64,000 bases of DNA from Candidatus Nomurabacteria bacterium (GTDB lineage Bacteria; Patescibacteriota; Minisyncoccia; Phycocordibacterales; UBA5272). This document shows positions 5,767 through 53,471 of this stretch, piece by piece. Below the pieces are notes generated by a model. It saw only the letters and a program-made list of their open reading frames with translations, had not been told where the DNA came from and made no database searches. Each line of letters begins with the position of its first letter. Position 1 is the first letter of the stretch. Where the stretch lies: assembly GCA_037134695.1 (NCBI GenBank), contig JBAXLU010000001.1, forward strand, positions 11,551 to 75,550, read 5' to 3'. A program made the position numbers and the translations under genes.

Positions 5767-5879
5767 TCTATAAAGTTGAAAGTCTATAAAGTGGTTGCGA
5801 AATTCCTTTTAACCTTAAGGACTTTATATACTTTTGACTGGTTGCAGGATGCAACTAAATATGTTATTATAGGCCGACT

Positions 5880-6086
5880 ATGAAAGCAGATATTCACCCA
5901 ACATATTATACAAACGCTACAGCAACTTGTGCTTGTGGTGCCACTTATAGTGTTGGTTCAACACAAGAAAAAATAGAAGTTGAAATCTGTCAGGCTTGCC
6001 ATCCATTCTATACAGGACAGGATAAAGTACTTGACTCTACCGGCCGCGTTGATAAGTTTAAGAAGAGAATGGCTGCTAAAAAGTAG
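5880..6086 (+). CDS. rpmE: 50S ribosomal protein L31
   Basis: 68-aa ORF MKADIHPTYY...C..C....CHPFYTG, canonical L31. Confidence 0.9.
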   Translation: MKADIHPTYYTNATATCACGATYSVGSTQEKIEVEICQACHPFYTGQDKVLDSTGRVDKFKKRMAAKK

Positions 6087-7276: not shown

Positions 7277-8026
7277 ATGTACTATATCATTCTTGTCGTC
7301 ATTGTTCTCCTCGGGCTTTCCCTCCGTGTTGTTAAAGAATATGATAGAGGGGTCATTTTCTTTTTAGGTAAATGTACTGGCGTGAGAGGTCCTGGACTTA
7401 TTATTCTTATTCCTATTTTTGAACAAATGACAAAGGTTGCACTTCGTACCATTACGATGAATATACCTTCTCAAAAAATTATTACACGCGATAATGTGTC
7501 TATAGATATTGCTGCAGTTGCTTATTATCATGTTGTTGATCCACAAAAGTCAGTTGTTGCAATTGAGAATGTGTATGATGCAGTAAATCAGATTAGTCAG
7601 ACAACAGTGAGAAATATTGTTGGACAATTTCAACTTGATCAACTTCTTTCACAAACAGTAGATATCAATCAACAAATTAAATCAGTCATCGATGCACACA
7701 CAGAACCATGGGGAGTAGAAGTGACGGCTGTTGAAATTAAAGACATTACATTACCTGATAATATGCAACGTGCGATGGCAAAGGAAGCAGAAGCAGAAAG
7801 AGAGAGACGAGCAAAGATAGTAGCAGCACAAGGGGAATTTGAGGCCGCGGTGAAGCTCGGAGAAGCGGCAGATATCATTTCTCTTCATCCTGTAGCACTT
7901 CAACTGCGCACACTACAAACTATGGCAGAAATTAGTGTAGAAAAGAATTCAACAATTATTTTCCCAGCACAGTTTATGACGACCGTTAATGAAGCAATTT
8001 CTATGATACGAGGAGATGTGAAGTAA
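7277..8026 (+). CDS. SPFH/band-7 (stomatin/prohibitin-like) membrane protein
   Basis: 249-aa ORF, N-terminal TM helix, SPFH core, C-terminal [22 protein letters not shown] coiled coil. Confidence 0.75.
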
Positions 8027-10489: not shown

Positions 10490-10565
10490 GCCGCTTTAGC
10501 TCAGTTGGTAGAGCAACGGTTTTGTAAACCGTAGGTCCTCAGTTCGAATCTGAGAAGCGGCTCCA
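10490..10565 (+). tRNA. tRNA-Thr (anticodon UGU), CCA encoded
   Basis: hand-folded cloverleaf: acceptor GCCGCTT/AAGCGGC, D-arm GCTC-AGTTGGTA-GAGC, anticodon arm ACGGT-TTTGTAA-ACCGT, T-arm CTCAG-TTCGAAT-CTGAG, then TCCA. Confidence 0.85.
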
Positions 10566-10604
10566 TAAATAATGGTGGTAGCCTTATTTATTGCCGATTC
10601 AACA

Positions 10605-10744
10605 AATCAGCCTGCGCTGATTTGTGGCAGATTCGAATGGGCGCAGTGATGTTTCGCTAGCAAGCGAAACCACGAGCGGCGGGCTGCGAGTCTTGTGAGC
10701 GACGGCGAACAAGAACTTGTAGCCGAATCTGAGAAGCGGCTCCA
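10605..10744 (+). repeat. tRNA-adjacent structured element, copy A (ends with a 21-nt exact copy of the tRNA-Thr 3' end)
   Basis: ~80% identical to 53211-53342; hairpin AATCAGC-CTGC-GCTGATT, conserved core GGCAGATTCGAATGGGC..CTAGCAAG..AAACCACGAGCGGCGGGCTGCGAGT, second hairpin TCTTGT..ACAAGA, then CTTGTAGCC + CGAATCTGAGAAGCGGCTCCA (= 10545-10565). Confidence 0.55.
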
Positions 10745-28503: not shown

Positions 28504-28700
28504 TGTAAATAGTTAGTTGTTTTGTTTCGGCGATTAGTAAATCGAACCGAGAGGAAGAAAGGTGGTAAGGTGAAAGCCTTCACGGGTTCGAATTCCATAC
28601 CATCTACTTTACGCGGGAGAAAATTGTTGTATCGTATGTAAGCTATAGGAAGGTAACTTTTATCTGTATTTATTTGCTTCTTTGCCTCTAATAGCATAGT

Positions 28701-45238: not shown

Positions 45239-45384
45239 TCTAAACTGGATAATCTGTAAAAGAAAATGCCACCCGTTAGGGTGGCATTCTCATGTGTTCT
45301 TCATCTATAAGCCGAGTTCTGTATTTGTATAGACATTTATCTTGTCTCTACATTGCTGTAAAGATCTAGCGACACTCTCCCAAC

Positions 45385-45515
45385 GCTCCGCATTGGGCGC
45401 AGAAGTACGCAGACTTAACGCTGACTGACGCAGAAGAATGCAATTTGTATTTTTCTGCGACCTTCTGCGTTCGTTCAGCGATGTTCTGCGCTTAATGCGA
45501 AGCATTAAGAGCACG
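45385..45515. repeat. imperfect ~110-bp palindrome built from ACGCAGAAG/ACGCGGAAG units (family D)
   Basis: left arm GCGCAGAAGTACGCAGACTTAACGCTGACTGACGCAGAAGAATGC, right arm is its near reverse complement; same units occur in frame in rplY, pheS, pheT and gyrB; ORFs 45305-45592(-) and 45438-45698(+) here are probably not genes. Confidence 0.6.
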
Positions 45516-45762
45516 GTCTTGCACACACGTATGTATTTAGCCGTTTCAGCCGGACTAAACCGGATCGTTTCTGTTCGCAACACAATGGTCACCCATGATG
45601 GGAATTACCCACTACGCTTGTTATGTAAACATAACTATGTGCTCGGACTTTCCTCACGATATTACTATCGCGCGTCTACCCAACAAAGAACTTTATAACG
45701 ATACTACATTTTTACTAGTATGTCAAAGTTTTTATTTAGTATATGTTATAATATATATTAAT

Positions 45763-50521: not shown

Positions 50522-50914
50522 ATGAAAGAATATCAACAGAAGTATATATTGCGCACAGTCATCTATTCTAGAGTGACTATGGTTATTCTTTTTATTGTAT
50601 TGATTTTATTCATTAGGACTATAGTGGAATTAAATGACAAGAGGATAAGTGCTTCTAATTTAAGAGAGGAATCAAGTATTGATCGTAAGGATTTAGAGGG
50701 GAAAGTTACTAAAGCCACAGAAAAAGAAGATTCAATAAAAACAGATCGTGGTTTTGAAACATATGTACGTACAACTTACCCCATAGTCGGAAATGGGGAG
50801 GGTGTTGTAGTTATTTATGATGTACCGACTAGTCCAGTAACTCCAGTGCGTGAGGATATGACAGTTTGGGAGAGATTGCTAGTTTTGTGGCACCGTCTTG
50901 TGCCAACTAAGTAA
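50522..50914 (+). CDS. hypothetical protein
   Basis: 130-aa ORF with N-terminal TM helix. Confidence 0.3.
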   Translation: MKEYQQKYILRTVIYSRVTMVILFIVLILFIRTIVELNDKRISASNLREESSIDRKDLEGKVTKATEKEDSIKTDRGFETYVRTTYPIVGNGEGVVVIYDVPTSPVTPVREDMTVWERLLVLWHRLVPTK

Positions 50915-50937
50915 GACCTACAAAATTAGAAAATTTC

Positions 50938-51312
50938 TTTGTGCGGGATAGGAGACGTTATACTATCGAAAACAAAATGATTACATTTTGTTTTAGAAAC
51001 CCACGGTTTCTAACGTTCATGAGCACACTCACTGTTTCCCGACCCATTCCCAGTTCGATTTTCACGTAAAGTGGTTTAGACCACTTTACTCTATCCCACA
51101 CAAAAAAACTCACTTTGTCCTTGTTTTGTTGTGCGGGATAGGAGACGCTTCGCTATCGAACACAAAATGATTACATTTTGTTTTAGAAACCCACGGTTTC
51201 TAACGTTCGTGATTACACTCACTGTTTTCCTCCACGGGAAACTCACGTTTCCCGACCCCTTCCTAGTTCGATTCTCCTATCCCGCACGTTCAAATAAGCT
51301 AAAGCTTTTTTG
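50938..51312. repeat. two tandem ~185-bp units each beginning with a copy of the tRNA-Gly 3' end
   Basis: TGTGCGGGATAGGAGA at 50941, 51131 and inside the tRNA at 51311; units share AACAAAATGATTACATTTTGTTTTAGAAACCCACGGTTTCTAACGTT; unit 2 ends in a 20-bp perfect inverted repeat with the tRNA 3' end (51268-51287 vs 51312-51331). Confidence 0.6.
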
Positions 51313-51383
51313 TGCGGGATAGGAGAATCGAACTCCTGTCTCAACCTTGGGAAGGTCGCATTCTACCACTAAACCAATCCCGC
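51313..51383 (-). tRNA. tRNA-Gly (anticodon CCC), no CCA encoded
   Basis: minus-strand cloverleaf GCGGGAT-TG-GTTT-AGTGGTA-GAAT-G-CGACC-TTCCCAA-GGTTG-AGAC-AGGAG-TTCGATT-CTCCT-ATCCCGC-A. Confidence 0.8.
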
Positions 51384-51473
51384 ATTTAATTTGTATCTTA
51401 TAGGATATCATATTTTAATTAAATTTCATTTTAATTTGCGGAAAGTTAGCATGCTAAGGTATAATACATTTCT

Positions 51474-51740
51474 ATGGATACAAATAACACAAACACAACG
51501 GGGGCTAAGGTAGATATTTATAGTACAAACTCATGTCATTTTTGTCATATGGCAAAGGAATGGCTTACAGAGAAAAATATTCCATATAATGATTTTAATG
51601 TTGGAATGGATCAAGTGAAAAGAAAAGAAATGGTAGAGATAACAGGTCAGCTAGGTGTACCAGTTATAAAAATTGGAGATGATGTAATGATTGGATTTAA
51701 TCCAGAGAAGATGGCGAGTTTATTAGGGATTGCAGTTTAA
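51474..51740 (+). CDS. glutaredoxin-like small redox protein
   Basis: 88-aa ORF; CHFC active-site-like motif after a beta strand (VDIYSTNSCHFCHMAKEWL), glutaredoxin/NrdH-like length and GVPVIKIGD motif. Confidence 0.6.
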   Translation: MDTNNTNTTGAKVDIYSTNSCHFCHMAKEWLTEKNIPYNDFNVGMDQVKRKEMVEITGQLGVPVIKIGDDVMIGFNPEKMASLLGIAV

Positions 51741-51841
51741 GATAAGTATAGAATACAAAAAGCAACATCATATGATGTTGCTTTTTGTATTCTGTTGATA
51801 TGTATATATACTTAATCCTAAGATATGGTATATATACATAT

Positions 51842-52477
51842 ATGGGAAAACCAAAAATAAAAGAAGATATTTTATATAAATTAAAATTACTGAGAGAGTC
51901 AGGTAAATCTATTGCGGAAATAGTTAATGAATTAGGTTTGGGTAAGGGAACAGTTGGCAAATATTGTAGAGATATAAAATTAAATAAAAAAGCAAAACAA
52001 GTTTTAGAGACAAAAAGGTATCCATCAAGAAGAGTTTCATTAGAACAAAAATTAGAATCTAGAGAACATGCATCTAAAATTATTAAATCGTTAAACGATA
52101 GAGATATGTTTCTTATTTTTAGTGCTTTATATTGGGGCGAGGGAACCAAGAGTGAGCTTAATATAATCAATGGTGACCATAGATTAATAGATTTTTTCGT
52201 TAAAGGTCTAATATCTTTAGGGATTGAAAAGAAACGTATTAAAATCTCTATTCGTTTTTATTCAGGTCAGAATAAAAAAGAGCTTATTTCATTTTGGTTA
52301 AAATTACTTGCTTTAGATGAGTCAAATATAGTAGGCTTTGAAAAGGTGGAAGGAAATGGGAAAACAAATAAACTAATACATGGCATGTGTAGGGTAAGAG
52401 TACAAAAAAGTTCTTATTATCACAAACTAGTTACTAGTGCTATAGAAATAATATCCTCCGGTAGTTCAAATGGATAG
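51842..52477 (+). CDS. hypothetical HTH-domain protein (possibly mobile-element related)
   Basis: likely start MGKPKIKE at 51842 (ORF track starts 51785); N-terminal HTH (SGKSIAEIVNELGLGKGTVGKY); 3' end overlaps a tRNA-like structure; sits between tRNA-Gly repeats and a putative tRNA-Arg. Confidence 0.35.
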   Translation: MGKPKIKEDILYKLKLLRESGKSIAEIVNELGLGKGTVGKYCRDIKLNKKAKQVLETKRYPSRRVSLEQKLESREHASKIIKSLNDRDMFLIFSALYWGEGTKSELNIINGDHRLIDFFVKGLISLGIEKKRIKISIRFYSGQNKKELISFWLKLLALDESNIVGFEKVEGNGKTNKLIHGMCRVRVQKSSYYHKLVTSAIEIISSGSSNG

Positions 52478-52525
52478 AACAGAAGCGTCCTAAGCTTTTA
52501 ATGTGGGTTCAATTCCTGCCCGGGG
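52453..52525 (+). tRNA. putative tRNA-Arg (anticodon CCU), low quality
   Basis: acceptor CCTCCGG/CCGGGGG (one G-U), D-arm GTTC-AAATGGATA-GAAC, anticodon arm GAAGC-GTCCTAA-GCTTT, T-arm GTGGG-TTCAATT-CCTGC (two G-U); G32 is atypical. Confidence 0.4.
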
Positions 52526-52550
52526 GACAATGTGGTGATATACTAAATAT

Positions 52551-52889
52551 ATGAAAGTATCAGATTTAACCAATCAAGAAAAATTAGAGGAGATTTTTGA
52601 AATGACGAAAGAGAATCATGATGTTCTTATTGGCATAAGACGCCAGCAGTATGTCGCTAATGCTTTTCGTTTATTAACATGGGTAGTTGTCTTTGCTTCT
52701 TTGGGCGGTGCTTATTATTATGTAAAACCAGTAGTGGACAGTTTCAATCAAAATAAATCAAAGATTGATGACACTATAAAACAATTCAATGATTTGCGTT
52801 CTCAGTTACCAGAAACTAAATTACTTGATCAAGTATTACAGGGCATAAAAAAAGCTACTGGTAATACAGCGACTACTACGAATCAATAA
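52551..52889 (+). CDS. hypothetical membrane protein
   Basis: 112-aa ORF, one TM helix. Confidence 0.3.
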   Translation: MKVSDLTNQEKLEEIFEMTKENHDVLIGIRRQQYVANAFRLLTWVVVFASLGGAYYYVKPVVDSFNQNKSKIDDTIKQFNDLRSQLPETKLLDQVLQGIKKATGNTATTTNQ

Positions 52890-53084
52890 AATATATCTTT
52901 TGTTTTAGCTGTTTTTATGATAGGATATTAAGACCTTTTAAATAGTTAAGAGGGAAGAGTTTAGAGAAATAAAGTAGATAAAACATGCTGGGATAGCTCA
53001 GTTGGCAAAAGAATTATTTGACATTTGCCGGCAAATGCTAAATTGGCATAAAGATAAAAACGTTTAGTGAGAAAAAGAATATTT

Positions 53085-53157
53085 GCTGGGATAGCTCAGT
53101 TGGTAGAGCATTTGCCTGAAGAGCAAGGGGTCGGCAGTTCGAGCCTGCCTCCCAGCA
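53085..53157 (+). tRNA. tRNA-Phe (anticodon GAA)
   Basis: GCTGGGA-TA-GCTC-AGTTGGTA-GAGC-A-TTTGC-CTGAAGA-GCAAG-GGGTC-GGCAG-TTCGAGC-CTGCC-TCCCAGC-A. Confidence 0.85.
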
Positions 53158-53164
53158 CAAAAAA

Positions 53165-53199
53165 CAAAAACGAAGTCACATGACTTCGTTTTTGTATTT
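53165..53199 (+). terminator. intrinsic terminator after tRNA-Phe
   Basis: AAAAACGAAGTC-ACAT-GACTTCGTTTTT then GTATTTT. Confidence 0.7.
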
Positions 53200-53210
53200 T
53201 GTGCTGGGAG

Positions 53211-53342
53211 AGTACGACGCCTGCGCGTCGTACGTGTAGGTTCGAATGGGCCTAAGTGTGCTTTCACTAGCAAGAAAAACCACGAGCGGCGGGCTGCGAG
53301 TTCGTCGAGTGGCGACGAGATGAAACTTGTAGCCGAGCCTGA
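53211..53342 (+). repeat. tRNA-adjacent structured element, copy B
   Basis: hairpin GTACGACGC-CTGC-GCGTCGTAC, core GTAGGTTCGAATGGGCC..CTAGCAAG..AAACCACGAGCGGCGGGCTGCGAGT, hairpin TCGTCG-AGTGG-CGACGA, then AACTTGTAGCCGAGCCTGA; ~80% identical to copy A with compensatory changes in both hairpins. Confidence 0.55.
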
Positions 53343-53471
53343 TTAGTATTGTTTCGACTTTTCTTCACCTTTTCCTATTTTTGTGGTATTGTAATAATGC
53401 GTACAGTTCAATAGAGTAAATAGTCTTAAAATGACTTAATTTATCAGTCGTTTTCAGCATAGATATTCTAT

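What the first reader, a model, noticed from the sequence alone, without database searches (positions are those of the whole stretch)
10490..10744. tRNA-Thr is followed by a ~140-nt conserved structured element that ends in an exact 21-nt copy of the tRNA 3' end
Seen directly: 40 nt after tRNA-Thr(UGU) lies an element (10605-10744) that is ~80% identical to a second element after tRNA-Phe (53211-53342). Both begin with a hairpin of completely different stem sequence but an identical CTGC loop and GC closing pairs. Copy A has AATCAGC-CTGC-GCTGATT; copy B has GTACGACGC-CTGC-GCGTCGTAC. Both share a core, ...GG(C/T)AG(A/G)TTCGAATGGGC...AGTG.TG.TTTC.CTAGCAAG..AAACCACGAGCGGCGGGCTGCGAGT. Both have a second hairpin with compensatory changes. 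In A it is TCTTGT..ACAAGA; in B it is TCGTCG..CGACGA. Both end with CTTGTAGCCGA(A/G)(T/C)CTGA. Copy A then continues into CGAATCTGAGAAGCGGCTCCA, identical to tRNA-Thr positions 10545-10565 (T-loop through CCA). Two covarying hairpins around a conserved core is the signature of a selected structure. That structure could be an RNA or a recombinase-bound DNA site. Duplication of the T-loop-to-CCA segment is the classic footprint of site-specific integration into a tRNA 3' end. Yet only ~160 bp separates the two copies and no integrase is nearby. Two readings fit. One is a small tRNA-linked non-coding RNA family co-transcribed with tRNAs. The other is terminal arm-type modules left by tRNA-targeting integrative elements. 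I cannot place the core in any RNA family I know (not SRP, RNase P or 6S; tmRNA rejected below).
Basis: seen in the sequence. Interest (0 to 1): 0.75.

Follow-up and report, generated by a model that had tools for sequence, protein, structure and literature searches.

The report
tRNA-tail structured RNA insertion elements
The block after tRNA-Thr belongs to an apparently undescribed family of ~150-nt, strongly structured non-coding elements. They sit directly behind tRNA genes in Nomurabacteria-type (CPR) bacteria and build their outer stems from inverted and direct copies of the neighbouring tRNA's 3' end.

Summary
Elements A (10593-10744) and B (53201-53342) share a 24-nt exact core, and the 21-nt tRNA-Thr repeat is exact.

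I found 13 copies in about 8 Nomurabacteria/Paceibacterota genomes. Each lies immediately 3' of a tRNA gene on the same strand (Thr, Phe, Ser x2, Arg, Gly). All fold alike:
- a variable hairpin, usually with a CUGC loop;
- a closing stem made from the cognate tRNA's T-loop/T-stem;
- a conserved three-way junction.

In the CM alignment 93.9% of pair cells are paired and 37 of 55 pairs show double changes. Two G.U pairs are invariant, and G.U outnumbers A.C 33 to 1, so the folded strand is the tRNA-sense strand.

New points:
- The left end is an inverted copy of the tRNA 3' end.
- The exact 21-mer is specific to the window's lineage; three close relatives carry TTCTGGC instead of AAGCGGC, which suggests gene conversion.
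- More distant relatives have empty sites.
- Other core families with the same arm logic follow tRNA-Gly in the window.

No Rfam family, phage, plasmid or recombinase match was found.

Best reading: an insertion-derived structured RNA that rides on tRNA transcription units. Its function and mobilising machinery are unknown.

The parts
10490..10565 (+). tRNA-Thr(UGU), the host gene of element A
   Evidence: ARAGORN; Rfam tRNA 74.4 bits.
10566..10592 (+). Spacer forming an AU-rich hairpin (AUAAAUAA..UUAUUUAU). Together with the tRNA 3' strand and the left arm it makes the longer hairpin 'H1'.
   Evidence: Fold of 10551-10600, -15.3 kcal/mol. No terminator-like site between the tRNA and the element.
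10593..10599 (+). Left arm, acceptor part (GCCGATT). It is one mismatch away from the complement of the tRNA-Thr 3' acceptor strand.
   Evidence: Sequence. Helix 1 in A5 is only 76.5% paired across copies.
10604..10623 (+). Hairpin 1 (AAATCAGC-CTGC-GCTGATTT). The stem is hypervariable; the loop is CUGC in 11 of 13 copies.
   Evidence: 8 of 9 pairs have double changes and 98.3% of cells are paired. The hairpin is entirely replaced in the L020 ortholog.
10628..10634 (+). P2 5' strand (CAGATTC), complementary to the tRNA T-loop/T-stem 3' side
   Evidence: Pairs with 10725-10731. 94.2% paired, with compensatory changes that follow each cognate tRNA.
10635..10681 (+). Junction AAUGG, helix P3 with the conserved loop CUAGCAAG, and junction GGCG
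   Evidence: Only 1 of 31 unpaired core columns varies among the four Thr orthologs.
10682..10724 (+). Helix P4: GGCUGCGAGU/ACUUGUAGCC with two invariant G.U pairs, a variable extension and the conserved loop GAGNGGCGRCGA
   Evidence: pairs 95:129 and 97:127 are G.U in 13/13 copies; 11 of 17 pairs show double changes.
10724..10744 (+). Right arm: exact copy of tRNA-Thr positions 56-76. 10725-10731 is the P2 3' strand; the rest is the acceptor 3' strand plus CCA.
   Evidence: Relatives have TTCTGGC instead of AAGCGGC at this place.
53085..53158 (+). tRNA-Phe(GAA), the host gene of element B
53159..53200 (+). Palindromic spacer containing a bidirectional terminator-like hairpin. With the flanking tRNA 3' strand and left arm it forms a ~31-bp hairpin.
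   Evidence: Terminator scan 53164-53195. Fold -45.8 kcal/mol.
53201..53342 (+). Element B. Left arm GTGCTGGGA; hairpin 1 at 53212-53233; P2 at 53237-53243 / 53335-53341; core between them. There is no acceptor 3' strand.
   Evidence: CM R1 125.9 bits, E about 5e-30. Orthologs in L033 and L034.
51128..51287 (-). Element G1, a second core family behind tRNA-Gly(CCC). It starts with the exact 23-nt reverse complement of the tRNA-Gly 3' end and ends with CTCCTATCCCGCAC.
50937..51101 (-). Element G2, a tandem second copy of the second family, with an inserted hairpin at the acceptor/T junction
51312..51383 (-). tRNA-Gly(CCC), the host gene of G1 and G2

Best explanation
Element A is one copy of a family of small (~150 nt, ~180 nt with spacer), non-coding, insertion-derived elements. 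They live directly behind tRNA genes in Ca. Nomurabacteria/Paceibacterota.

Each copy reads, on the tRNA strand:
1. A short palindromic spacer.
2. An inverted copy of the cognate tRNA's 3' end, interrupted at the acceptor/T boundary by a variable hairpin.
3. A conserved three-way-junction core.
4. A direct copy of the tRNA from T-loop position 56 onward.

The functional form is most likely an RNA made from the tRNA's own transcription unit, or by read-through of its terminator. The two tRNA-derived arms pair. The T-loop/T-stem part forms the obligatory closing stem P2. The acceptor part, when present, extends P2 into a tRNA-minihelix-like rod. Helices P3 and P4 and their invariant unpaired nucleotides are the active module, whose target is unknown.

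The arms are kept similar to the resident tRNA by gene conversion or palindrome correction. That process produced the perfect 21-nt repeat seen in this window. The same repeats would allow gain, loss, tandem duplication and exchange of copies by recombination.

Shown: the family, its anatomy, the covariation, the folded strand, the occupied and empty sites, selective constraint in the Thr orthologs, and the arm turnover.
Inferred: transcription and processing, the function of the core, and the way new copies arise.
For: Family and position. The 19-mer scan and CM R1 found 13 copies with E-values from 1e-25 to 1e-41, all immediately 3' of a tRNA on the same strand.

Structure.
- 93.9% of pair cells are paired, against 71.5% in shuffles and 39-44% in slid controls.
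- 37 of 55 pairs show double changes.
- The covariation score is 0.601 against 0.178, with 0 of 500 shuffles as high.

Strand.
- G.U outnumbers A.C 33 to 1 in hairpin 1 and P2-P4.
- Two G.U pairs are invariant in 13/13 copies.

Arms follow the tRNA.
- tRNAs with T-loop TTCGATT have AATCGAA or GATCGAA on the left; TTCGAAT tRNAs have ATTCGAA.
- L033 has CAGGCTCG, complementary to tRNA-Phe.

Constraint.
- Among the Thr orthologs, core identity is 0.87-0.97.
- Identity at 4-fold sites of rpsB+tsf is 0.61-0.76 for five of the six pairs. The L023/L025 pair is the exception: 0.89 at 4-fold sites against 0.92 for the core.
- Variable columns are 14/76 paired against 1/31 unpaired.

Occupied and empty sites.
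- L028, L029, L031 and L032 have tRNA-Thr followed directly by the same downstream gene.
- The flank after the L025 right arm is homologous to the flank after the L031 tRNA.

Gene conversion. The window right arm has AAGCGGC where L020, L023 and L025 have TTCTGGC: four clustered changes that create identity with the tRNA.

Co-transcription. No terminator lies between tRNA-Thr and A, and a promoter-like site conserved among the close relatives lies upstream of the tRNA.

Same architecture elsewhere.
- Different cores with the same arm logic sit behind tRNA-Gly in the window, tRNA-Phe in L036 and tRNA-Gly in L033/L034.
- Tandem arrays occur in L015, in L034 and at the window Gly locus.
Against: - There are no expression data.
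- B and several other copies lie behind a good intrinsic terminator and have no promoter-like site of their own.
- The acceptor-like stem is only 76.5% paired and is missing in B and L008, so functional tRNA mimicry is doubtful.
- No recombinase, RT or transposase is linked to any copy, so mobility is inferred from distribution only.
- Empty sites could be losses through the direct repeats rather than non-insertion.
- The Phe orthologs diverge about as fast as neutral sites (0.66-0.72). Their apparent compensatory changes may be swaps of whole modules between copies.
- The sample is about 8 related genomes.
Confidence: 0.55

Rival explanations
1. A host non-coding RNA family that is not mobile. 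Ancient local duplicates of tRNA 3' regions evolved into tRNA-like RNAs that act in tRNA biology. Candidate roles are a decoy or antidote for enzymes that recognise the acceptor/T minihelix of the cognate tRNA, or a processing or regulatory partner of that tRNA. Gains and losses reflect ordinary duplication and deletion.
For: - Strong constraint on the Thr orthologs, including nearly invariant unpaired nucleotides.
- The Thr and Phe copies are retained at the same loci across the whole clade with S2 identity of at least 91%.
- The arms track the cognate tRNA.
Against: - The same conserved core sits behind six different tRNAs, while the same tRNA (Gly-CCC, Phe) carries different core families in different lineages. 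That is hard to obtain by independent local duplication.
- Tandem and truncated copies exist.
- The acceptor stem is poorly kept.
- Sister lineages do without the element.
Confidence: 0.2
2. A DNA-level element. The top strand, when single-stranded, folds into a hairpin whose stem reproduces the double-stranded tRNA 3' end. This is an attB mimic, like integron attC sites or the CTX-phage attP(+) hairpin. A host or helper tyrosine recombinase would exchange one strand with the tRNA gene. Integration of such a circle gives exactly the observed order: tRNA 3' end, spacer, inverted copy, core, direct copy.
For: - The order direct-spacer-inverted-core-direct, and the tandem arrays, are what this model predicts.
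- The spacer palindromes are long and near-perfect, and they change coordinately on both arms between the window and L033.
- Structure is conserved while stem sequence varies, as in attC.
- The strand bias of G.T is compatible with one folded DNA strand.
Against: - No integron-type or other recombinase was found near any copy or in the window.
- Two invariant G.U(T) pairs and about 30 conserved unpaired nucleotides in a three-way junction are more typical of RNA.
- The model does not explain how both arms are re-written for a new tRNA.
- The constraint at fixed orthologous loci is unexplained by this model.
Confidence: 0.13
3. Decayed attL/attR arms (a CIME-like remnant) left by a larger tRNA-integrating island or prophage that was later deleted.
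For: The tRNA 3' end is duplicated. The outer copy sometimes carries a different tRNA allele, as a displaced original 3' end would: TTCTGGC at Thr and GTACCGCGCAC at Gly.
Against: - All 13 copies have the same ~150-nt size and none encloses genes.
- There were no real hits in IMG/VR, phage or plasmid collections.
- RNA-type covariation and selective constraint are seen.
- The inverted tRNA copy is not expected from integrase att sites.
Confidence: 0.05
4. A retroelement-like RNA. The left arm acts as a primer-binding site complementary to the tRNA 3' end (T-loop to 3' end, as in LTR elements). Copies would arise by tRNA-primed reverse transcription using an RT encoded elsewhere.
For: - The left arm is antisense to the last ~21-23 nt of the tRNA.
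- A retron-type RT gene lies 2.7 kb from the Thr element in the relative L023.
- The L003 copy ends in GCCA although its tRNA gene has no encoded CCA.
Against: - Complementarity and the direct repeats continue into the genomic trailer (for example ACAAAAA in L015), not into CCA, so the arms were copied from DNA or from a precursor.
- The window contains no RT.
- The L023 RT is retron-like and probably unrelated.
Confidence: 0.05

Closest known systems
tRNA-gene-targeting integrative elements and their miniature derivatives (CIMEs)
   Same: They sit at the 3' end of a tRNA gene and duplicate the T-loop-to-3'-end segment. They can accumulate in tandem. The outer repeat can preserve a different tRNA allele.
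   Different: This element is only ~150-180 nt and no integrase was found with any copy. It has an extra inverted copy of the tRNA end. Its conserved interior behaves like a folded RNA, with covariation and invariant G.U pairs, rather than like arm-type protein-binding sites.
Bacterial MITEs (e.g. Correia, RUP, BOX, ERIC)
   Same: Small, non-coding, multi-copy and bounded by inverted repeats. Their transcripts fold into long hairpins. Copies are present or absent between strains.
   Different: MITE terminal repeats are the same in all copies because a transposase reads them. Here the terminal repeats differ from copy to copy and equal the neighbouring tRNA, while the interior is the conserved part.
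Folded single-strand recombination sites (integron attC; CTX-phage attP(+))
   Same: Structure is conserved while stem sequence varies. A stem that imitates the target duplex would yield the observed direct-inverted-direct arrangement after strand exchange.
   Different: No cognate recombinase was found. The loop is a ~90-nt conserved three-way junction. The target is a tRNA gene rather than attI or dif.
tRNA-like non-coding RNAs (tmRNA tRNA-like domain, bacterial YrlA, mascRNA)
   Same: An acceptor-like stem stacked on a T-stem, with the rest of the tRNA body replaced. Such stems recruit tRNA-processing enzymes.
   Different: Here the T-loop itself is replaced by the insert and its bases are paired. 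The acceptor stem copies whichever tRNA lies upstream and is often decayed. There is no Rfam match to any of these families.
Guide-bearing mobile-element RNAs (TnpB reRNA/omega RNA, group I/II intron guide sequences, LTR primer-binding sites)
   Same: A conserved scaffold is joined to a ~20-nt segment identical or complementary to the flanking target.
   Different: The sense and antisense segments cover the same tRNA stretch and pair with each other. No TnpB, IscB, RT or intron core is present. The scaffold matches no known family.

Membership tests
tRNA (RF00005) / pseudo-tRNA | Cloverleaf with D-arm, anticodon arm and a 7-nt T-loop | tested here: not met
   ARAGORN and Rfam call only the upstream tRNA. 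The element has one hairpin in place of the D and anticodon arms, and ~90 nt inserted in the T-loop.
tmRNA (standard or permuted) | tRNA-like domain with an intact T-arm, a tag reading frame and pseudoknots | tested here: not met
   ARAGORN finds no tmRNA. Rfam gives nothing at E<=10 over A. The only related hit is a 21-bit sub-threshold tmRNA_permuted match that overlaps the tRNA-Gly 3' end in L015. The family is multi-copy.
Group I intron | P3-P9 catalytic core of at least ~200 nt, inserted within a gene and flanked by exons | tested here: not met
   No Intron_gpI hit at E<=10. The core is ~90 nt and the upstream tRNA is intact. The Patescibacteria tRNA introns reported in PMC13011429 lie in the anticodon loop.
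Tyrosine-integrase integrative element / CIME remnant | Direct repeats of the tRNA 3' end flanking element DNA | tested here: met
   A 21-nt exact repeat in the window; 6 to 24 nt in other copies.
Tyrosine-integrase integrative element / CIME remnant | An integrase gene, or related full-length elements carrying the same att arms | tested here: not met
   No recombinase domain in the 50 window ORFs scanned. All 13 copies are ~150 nt. No viral, phage or plasmid relatives were found.
MITE | Terminal inverted repeats shared by all copies, plus a fixed-length target-site duplication | tested here: not met
   The terminal repeats equal the local tRNA and differ between copies. Direct-repeat length varies.
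Integron attC / CTX-type folded ssDNA site | An imperfect hairpin recognised by a dedicated recombinase (IntI or XerCD) on one strand | tested here: inconclusive
   Strand-specific folding and variable stems are present. No recombinase was identified, and single-stranded or circular forms cannot be tested here.
OMEGA / TnpB-IscB guide RNA or IS200/IS605 PATE | An adjacent TnpB/IscB/TnpA gene or a known omega-RNA scaffold | tested here: not met
   No such protein in the window (Pfam calls above). No HEARO or IS605-orfB type Rfam hits.
Retron ncRNA | msr-msd RNA flanked by inverted repeats, lying immediately upstream of its RT gene | tested here: not met
   No RT next to any copy. The only RT seen (L023 4288-5178) is 2.7 kb away, on the other side of rpsB-tsf, and R1 does not hit beside it.
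Structured non-coding RNA (generic) | A conserved secondary structure supported by covariation on one strand | tested here: met
Structured non-coding RNA (generic) | A discrete transcript | not testable with these tools
   Only promoter and terminator patterns were available.

The most novel reading that the evidence does not exclude
These are a new class of protein-free, or protein-light, self-propagating RNA elements. A conserved ~90-nt three-way-junction RNA, possibly a ribozyme or the handle of an unknown RNP, uses an antisense and a sense copy of a tRNA's 3' end to attach itself behind that tRNA gene. It is then expressed, processed and stabilised through the tRNA pathway. Several interchangeable cores would share this tRNA-tail docking system in CPR bacteria.
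Probability: 0.2. Interest if true: 0.92.

Novelty: new variant of a known kind. Interest (0 to 1): 0.77.

Why it matters
CPR/Patescibacteria have tiny genomes with little room for junk. Yet in the sampled loci about 16 of 27 tRNA genes carry such a tail.

A structured RNA kept under constraint is unlikely to be passive debris, and here it borrows the identity of the neighbouring tRNA and comes in several core families. It could reveal one of three things:
- a new way for selfish elements to use tRNA genes without an integrase;
- a new RNA or RNP function tied to tRNA processing;
- a natural version of the 'tRNA scaffold' used in RNA engineering.

Practically, the covariance model gives annotators a way to label these regions. 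The arm turnover also explains odd partial tRNA duplications in CPR genomes, which could otherwise be misread as prophage att sites.

Tried and rejected
Database searches that found nothing relevant:
- Rfam at gathering threshold on the whole window, and at E<=10 or E<=1 on A, L015, L003 and window 50850-53450. Only tRNAs, RNase P (45292-45691) and hairpin noise appeared.
- ARAGORN for tmRNA: none.
- Three IMG/VR scans. The only hits were two chance matches in high-GC phage contigs.
- A metagenome scan with a three-motif pattern gave two chance hits in high-GC contigs, so the pattern was probably too strict.
- In the genome scan, 11 of 15 hits were chance matches in high-GC genomes.
- BLAST against phage and plasmid collections: no match.
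- An exact-protein look-up of the gene downstream of A was not on record.
- One P0122 look-up returned no DNA.
- Five literature searches found only the Patescibacteria tRNA group I intron paper. It concerns anticodon-loop introns and is not this element.

Ideas examined by eye and dropped:
- A C/D-box-like k-turn at GUGAUG/CGAG. Covariation instead supports an ordinary GUG/CAC helix (for example GGCA/UGCC in L015b).
- A hammerhead core. The would-be GAAA positions covary as base pairs.
- A tmRNA-like tag reading frame. Its end is not conserved between A and B.
- A kissing pair between the hairpin-1 loop CUGC and the GCAG of the core. It is plausible in most copies but has no covariation support; B, L008, L020 and L034 break it.
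- My first guess that ORF 51785-52477 is a LAGLIDADG endonuclease. Only weak HTH-type hits were found.
Full report
OBSERVATION. tRNA-Thr(UGU) is at 10490-10565 and tRNA-Phe(GAA) at 53085-53158. The 21-mer CGAATCTGAGAAGCGGCTCCA occurs exactly twice, at 10545 and 10724, and the identity stops at both edges. Elements A and B share the exact 24-mer AACCACGAGCGGCGGGCTGCGAGT, which has no further match in the window and none in 100 shuffles. Identity between A and B is 76% over the core and 69% when the first hairpin is included. Each RNA folds far better than its shuffles, with z = -5.5 for A and -3.3 for B.

A FAMILY, ALWAYS BEHIND A tRNA. A scan of one genome per GTDB species with a 19-mer of the core gave four true hits in three CPR genomes: Ca. 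Paceibacterota SO_2017_LW4_129 (two hits), Ca. Nomurabacteria nzgw481 and the uncultured bin Ja_bin-4026. The other eleven hits were chance matches in high-GC genomes. A covariance model built from seven copies (R1) then found further copies. One was a second copy in L003. Others were orthologs in close relatives of the window genome, fetched through the neighbouring rpsB gene and a 112-aa gene.

In all there are 13 distinct copies with E-values from 1e-25 to 1e-41. Every one lies immediately 3' of a tRNA gene on the same strand: Thr-UGU, Phe-GAA, Ser-UGA, Ser-GCU, Arg-GCG and Gly-CCC. The copy at the start of contig L003 is the one exception, because nothing upstream of it can be seen. The source is a Ca. 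Nomurabacteria MAG; its S2 protein is 100% identical to P0001.

ANATOMY. On the tRNA strand each copy reads as follows.
- (i) A short spacer that is itself a palindrome, often terminator-like.
- (ii) A left arm that is the reverse complement of the cognate tRNA's 3' end. In L006, for example, the tRNA ends GGTTCGATTCCTGCCGAGAGCAC and the element starts GTGCTCTCGG[hairpin]CAGGAATCGAA.
- (iii) Inside that arm, at the acceptor/T boundary, a 9-bp hairpin. Its stem is different in almost every copy, and its loop is CUGC in 11 of 13 copies.
- (iv) A conserved core.
- (v) A right arm that is a direct copy of the tRNA from T-loop position 56 onward.

tRNAs with T-loop TTCGATT have AATCGAA or GATCGAA on the left, and those with TTCGAAT have ATTCGAA. 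The left arm therefore follows the complement of the 3' side rather than copying the tRNA 5' half. Complementarity often continues into the trailer beyond the tRNA.

STRUCTURE. RNAalifold and the CM alignment agree on the fold.
- A closing stem P2 is made from the T-derived parts of the two arms.
- Behind P2 lies a three-way junction with P3 (loop CUAGCAAG) and P4 (GGCUGCGAGU/ACUUGUAGCC, a variable extension and the loop GAGNGGCGRCGA).
- P4 stacks directly on P2.
- When the acceptor parts pair they extend P2, with hairpin 1 as a side branch.

On 13 sequences, 93.9% of pair cells are standard pairs. Shuffled controls give 71.5% and slid controls 39-44%. Of 55 pairs, 37 have changes on both sides, and the covariation score is 0.601 against 0.178, with 0 of 500 shuffles as high. 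Hairpin 1, P2, P3 and P4 are 94-98% paired, but the acceptor-like helix is only 76.5% paired. G.U pairs outnumber A.C 33 to 1 in the conserved helices, and two G.U pairs in P4 are invariant in all 13 copies. The molecule that folds therefore has the tRNA-sense sequence, which favours RNA.

WHAT THE 21-nt REPEAT REALLY IS. The first 8 nt (CGAATCTG) form the 3' strand of P2, so they are a structural part of the element. The rest is acceptor strand plus CCA. In three relatives with S2 identity of 96, 92 and 91%, the orthologous element ends CGAATCTGAG-TTCTGGC-TCCA. Their tRNA-Thr is identical to that of the window (AAGCGGC). Four clustered differences that create perfect identity with the tRNA in the window lineage alone point to a short gene-conversion tract.

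TTCTGGC is the acceptor strand of the tRNA-Thr allele found in other relatives, L028 and L029. A similar 'foreign' right arm, GTACCGCGCAC, ends Gly-linked copies in L015, L033 and L034. At the Phe locus no ortholog has an acceptor 3' strand at all. The left arm there still complements the tRNA 3' end through a ~31-bp hairpin of -45.8 kcal/mol.

INSERTION POLYMORPHISM. In four more distant relatives (S2 identity 86-88%), tRNA-Thr is followed directly by the same downstream gene, which begins MID.KKY. R1 finds nothing there. The sequence that follows the right arm in L025 is homologous to the sequence that follows the tRNA in the empty L031. This fixes the extra segment as spacer, left arm, core and right arm, ending in GGCTCC.

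The Phe copy has the same distribution: it is present in the clade with S2 identity of at least 91%. In L036, tRNA-Phe instead carries an element with a different core. Whether the empty sites are ancestral or are deletions through the direct repeats cannot be decided here.

MORE THAN ONE CORE. Behind tRNA-Gly(CCC) on the minus strand of the window lie two tandem elements, G1 (51287-51128) and G2 (51101-50937). Each starts with the exact 23-nt reverse complement of the tRNA-Gly 3' end, or a slightly decayed version of it. Each ends with CTCCTATCCCGCAC, but the core between is unrelated to family 1.
- The L036 Phe element shares that second core.
- L033 and L034 carry a third, AT-rich core behind tRNA-Gly.
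- L015 has two tandem family-1 copies behind the same tRNA-Gly.

Overall, about 16 of 27 tRNA genes with enough downstream sequence carry some such tail. Arg-CCU never does.

SELECTION. Among the four Thr orthologs the core is 87-97% identical. In five of the six pairs, 4-fold degenerate sites of the adjacent rpsB and tsf genes are only 61-76% identical. In the sixth pair (L023/L025) the two values are 0.89 and 0.92. Variable columns are 14 of 76 paired positions, mostly compensatory, but only 1 of 31 unpaired positions. That pattern is purifying selection on a folded molecule at a fixed locus.

The Phe orthologs are only 66-72% identical, and they differ by whole modules that recur in copies from other genomes. 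The L034 P4 tip resembles that of L003a, and the L033 P4 base resembles that of L003b. This suggests exchange between copies. Hairpin 1 was replaced wholesale in L020.

CONTEXT. All window ORFs scanned are housekeeping or of unknown function (rpsB, tsf, pheST, thrS, mur genes, nrdD and others). No integrase, transposase or RT domain was seen above threshold. A promoter-like site conserved among the close relatives precedes tRNA-Thr, and no terminator separates it from A, so co-transcription is likely. B lies behind a bidirectional terminator without a promoter of its own. No Rfam family matches any element, and neither the phage nor the plasmid collection matches. The literature searches found nothing comparable.

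INTERPRETATION. The best-supported reading is a family of insertion-derived, tRNA-piggybacking structured RNAs. The T-derived stem is a required part of the fold. The acceptor-like stem and the perfect repeat are by-products of how the arms are made and homogenised. The core with its invariant unpaired bases is the functional part, and its target is unknown. I put this at 0.55.

A non-mobile host RNA acting in tRNA biology (0.2) explains the constraint. It does not explain the same core behind six tRNAs, or different cores behind one tRNA. A folded single-strand DNA site that imitates the tRNA attB (0.13) explains the direct-inverted-direct order and the tandem arrays very well. It lacks a recombinase, however, and it does not explain the RNA-like features. 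Decayed att arms of a larger element (0.05) and a tRNA-primed retroelement (0.05) are poorly supported.

How both arms come to match a new tRNA remains unexplained. Gene conversion, seen here for the right arm, together with correction within the palindrome, is a possible route but is only inferred.

VERDICT. The feature is real, reproducible and apparently undescribed. It is related in theme to tRNA-targeting insertions, MITEs and tRNA-like RNAs, but it fails the defining tests of each.

Noticed in passing
window 50937-51287 (-): Two tandem elements of a different core family lie behind tRNA-Gly(CCC). Each is bounded by an inverted and a direct copy of the tRNA-Gly 3' end. A related core follows tRNA-Phe in L036 (5510-5630).
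   Followed up: partly
window 52987-53005: A 19-nt copy of the tRNA-Phe 5' end (GCTGGGATAGCTCAGTTGG) lies 98 nt upstream of the intact gene. It is conserved, though decayed, in L033 and L034. L028 and L029 carry a similar 5'-side duplication of tRNA-Thr, with a ~45-nt insert in the D-loop that contains CTAGCAAG.
   Followed up: partly
window 28504-28625: The region downstream of tRNA-Ser(GGA) contains T-arm-like pieces (AAATCGAACC..., CACGGGTTCGAATTCC) and GGTGGTA...ATACCATC. This may be another pseudo-tRNA or tail element. R1 does not hit it.
   Followed up: no
window 51785-52528: A 230-aa ORF with only weak HTH-type similarity (TnsD and IS21 N-terminal regions, sub-threshold) overlaps the start of tRNA-Arg(CCU). 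Relatives (L033, L034, L036) lack the ORF and have this tRNA in the opposite orientation, which suggests a local rearrangement.
   Followed up: partly
L023 4288-5178 (-): A retron-type reverse transcriptase gene is inserted between prfA and rpsB in a close relative. The window has an SPFH/Band7 gene (7277-8026) and a 142-aa ORF at that place.
   Followed up: partly
L034 about 5830-5960: After the family-1 Phe element comes a second terminator palindrome. It is followed by another left arm (GTGCTGGGAGGCAGGCTCG, without hairpin 1) and then unrelated sequence. This is either a truncated or a different tail element.
   Followed up: no
L003 3864-3923 and 1-158: Contig L003 ends inside a left arm after tRNA-Arg(GCG) and begins inside another family-1 copy. 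The assembly probably broke at these repeats.
   Followed up: no
window 45292-45691 (-): Bacterial class A RNase P RNA (104 bits), just above the Rfam gathering score. It overlaps the start of the murJ-like ORF call at 45595.
   Followed up: no
L028/L029 versus window, tRNA-Thr: Closely related genomes carry tRNA-Thr(UGU) alleles whose whole acceptor stem differs: GCCAGAA/TTCTGGC against GCCGCTT/AAGCGGC. That is four compensated pairs, and it suggests allelic replacement by recombination rather than stepwise change.
   Followed up: partly
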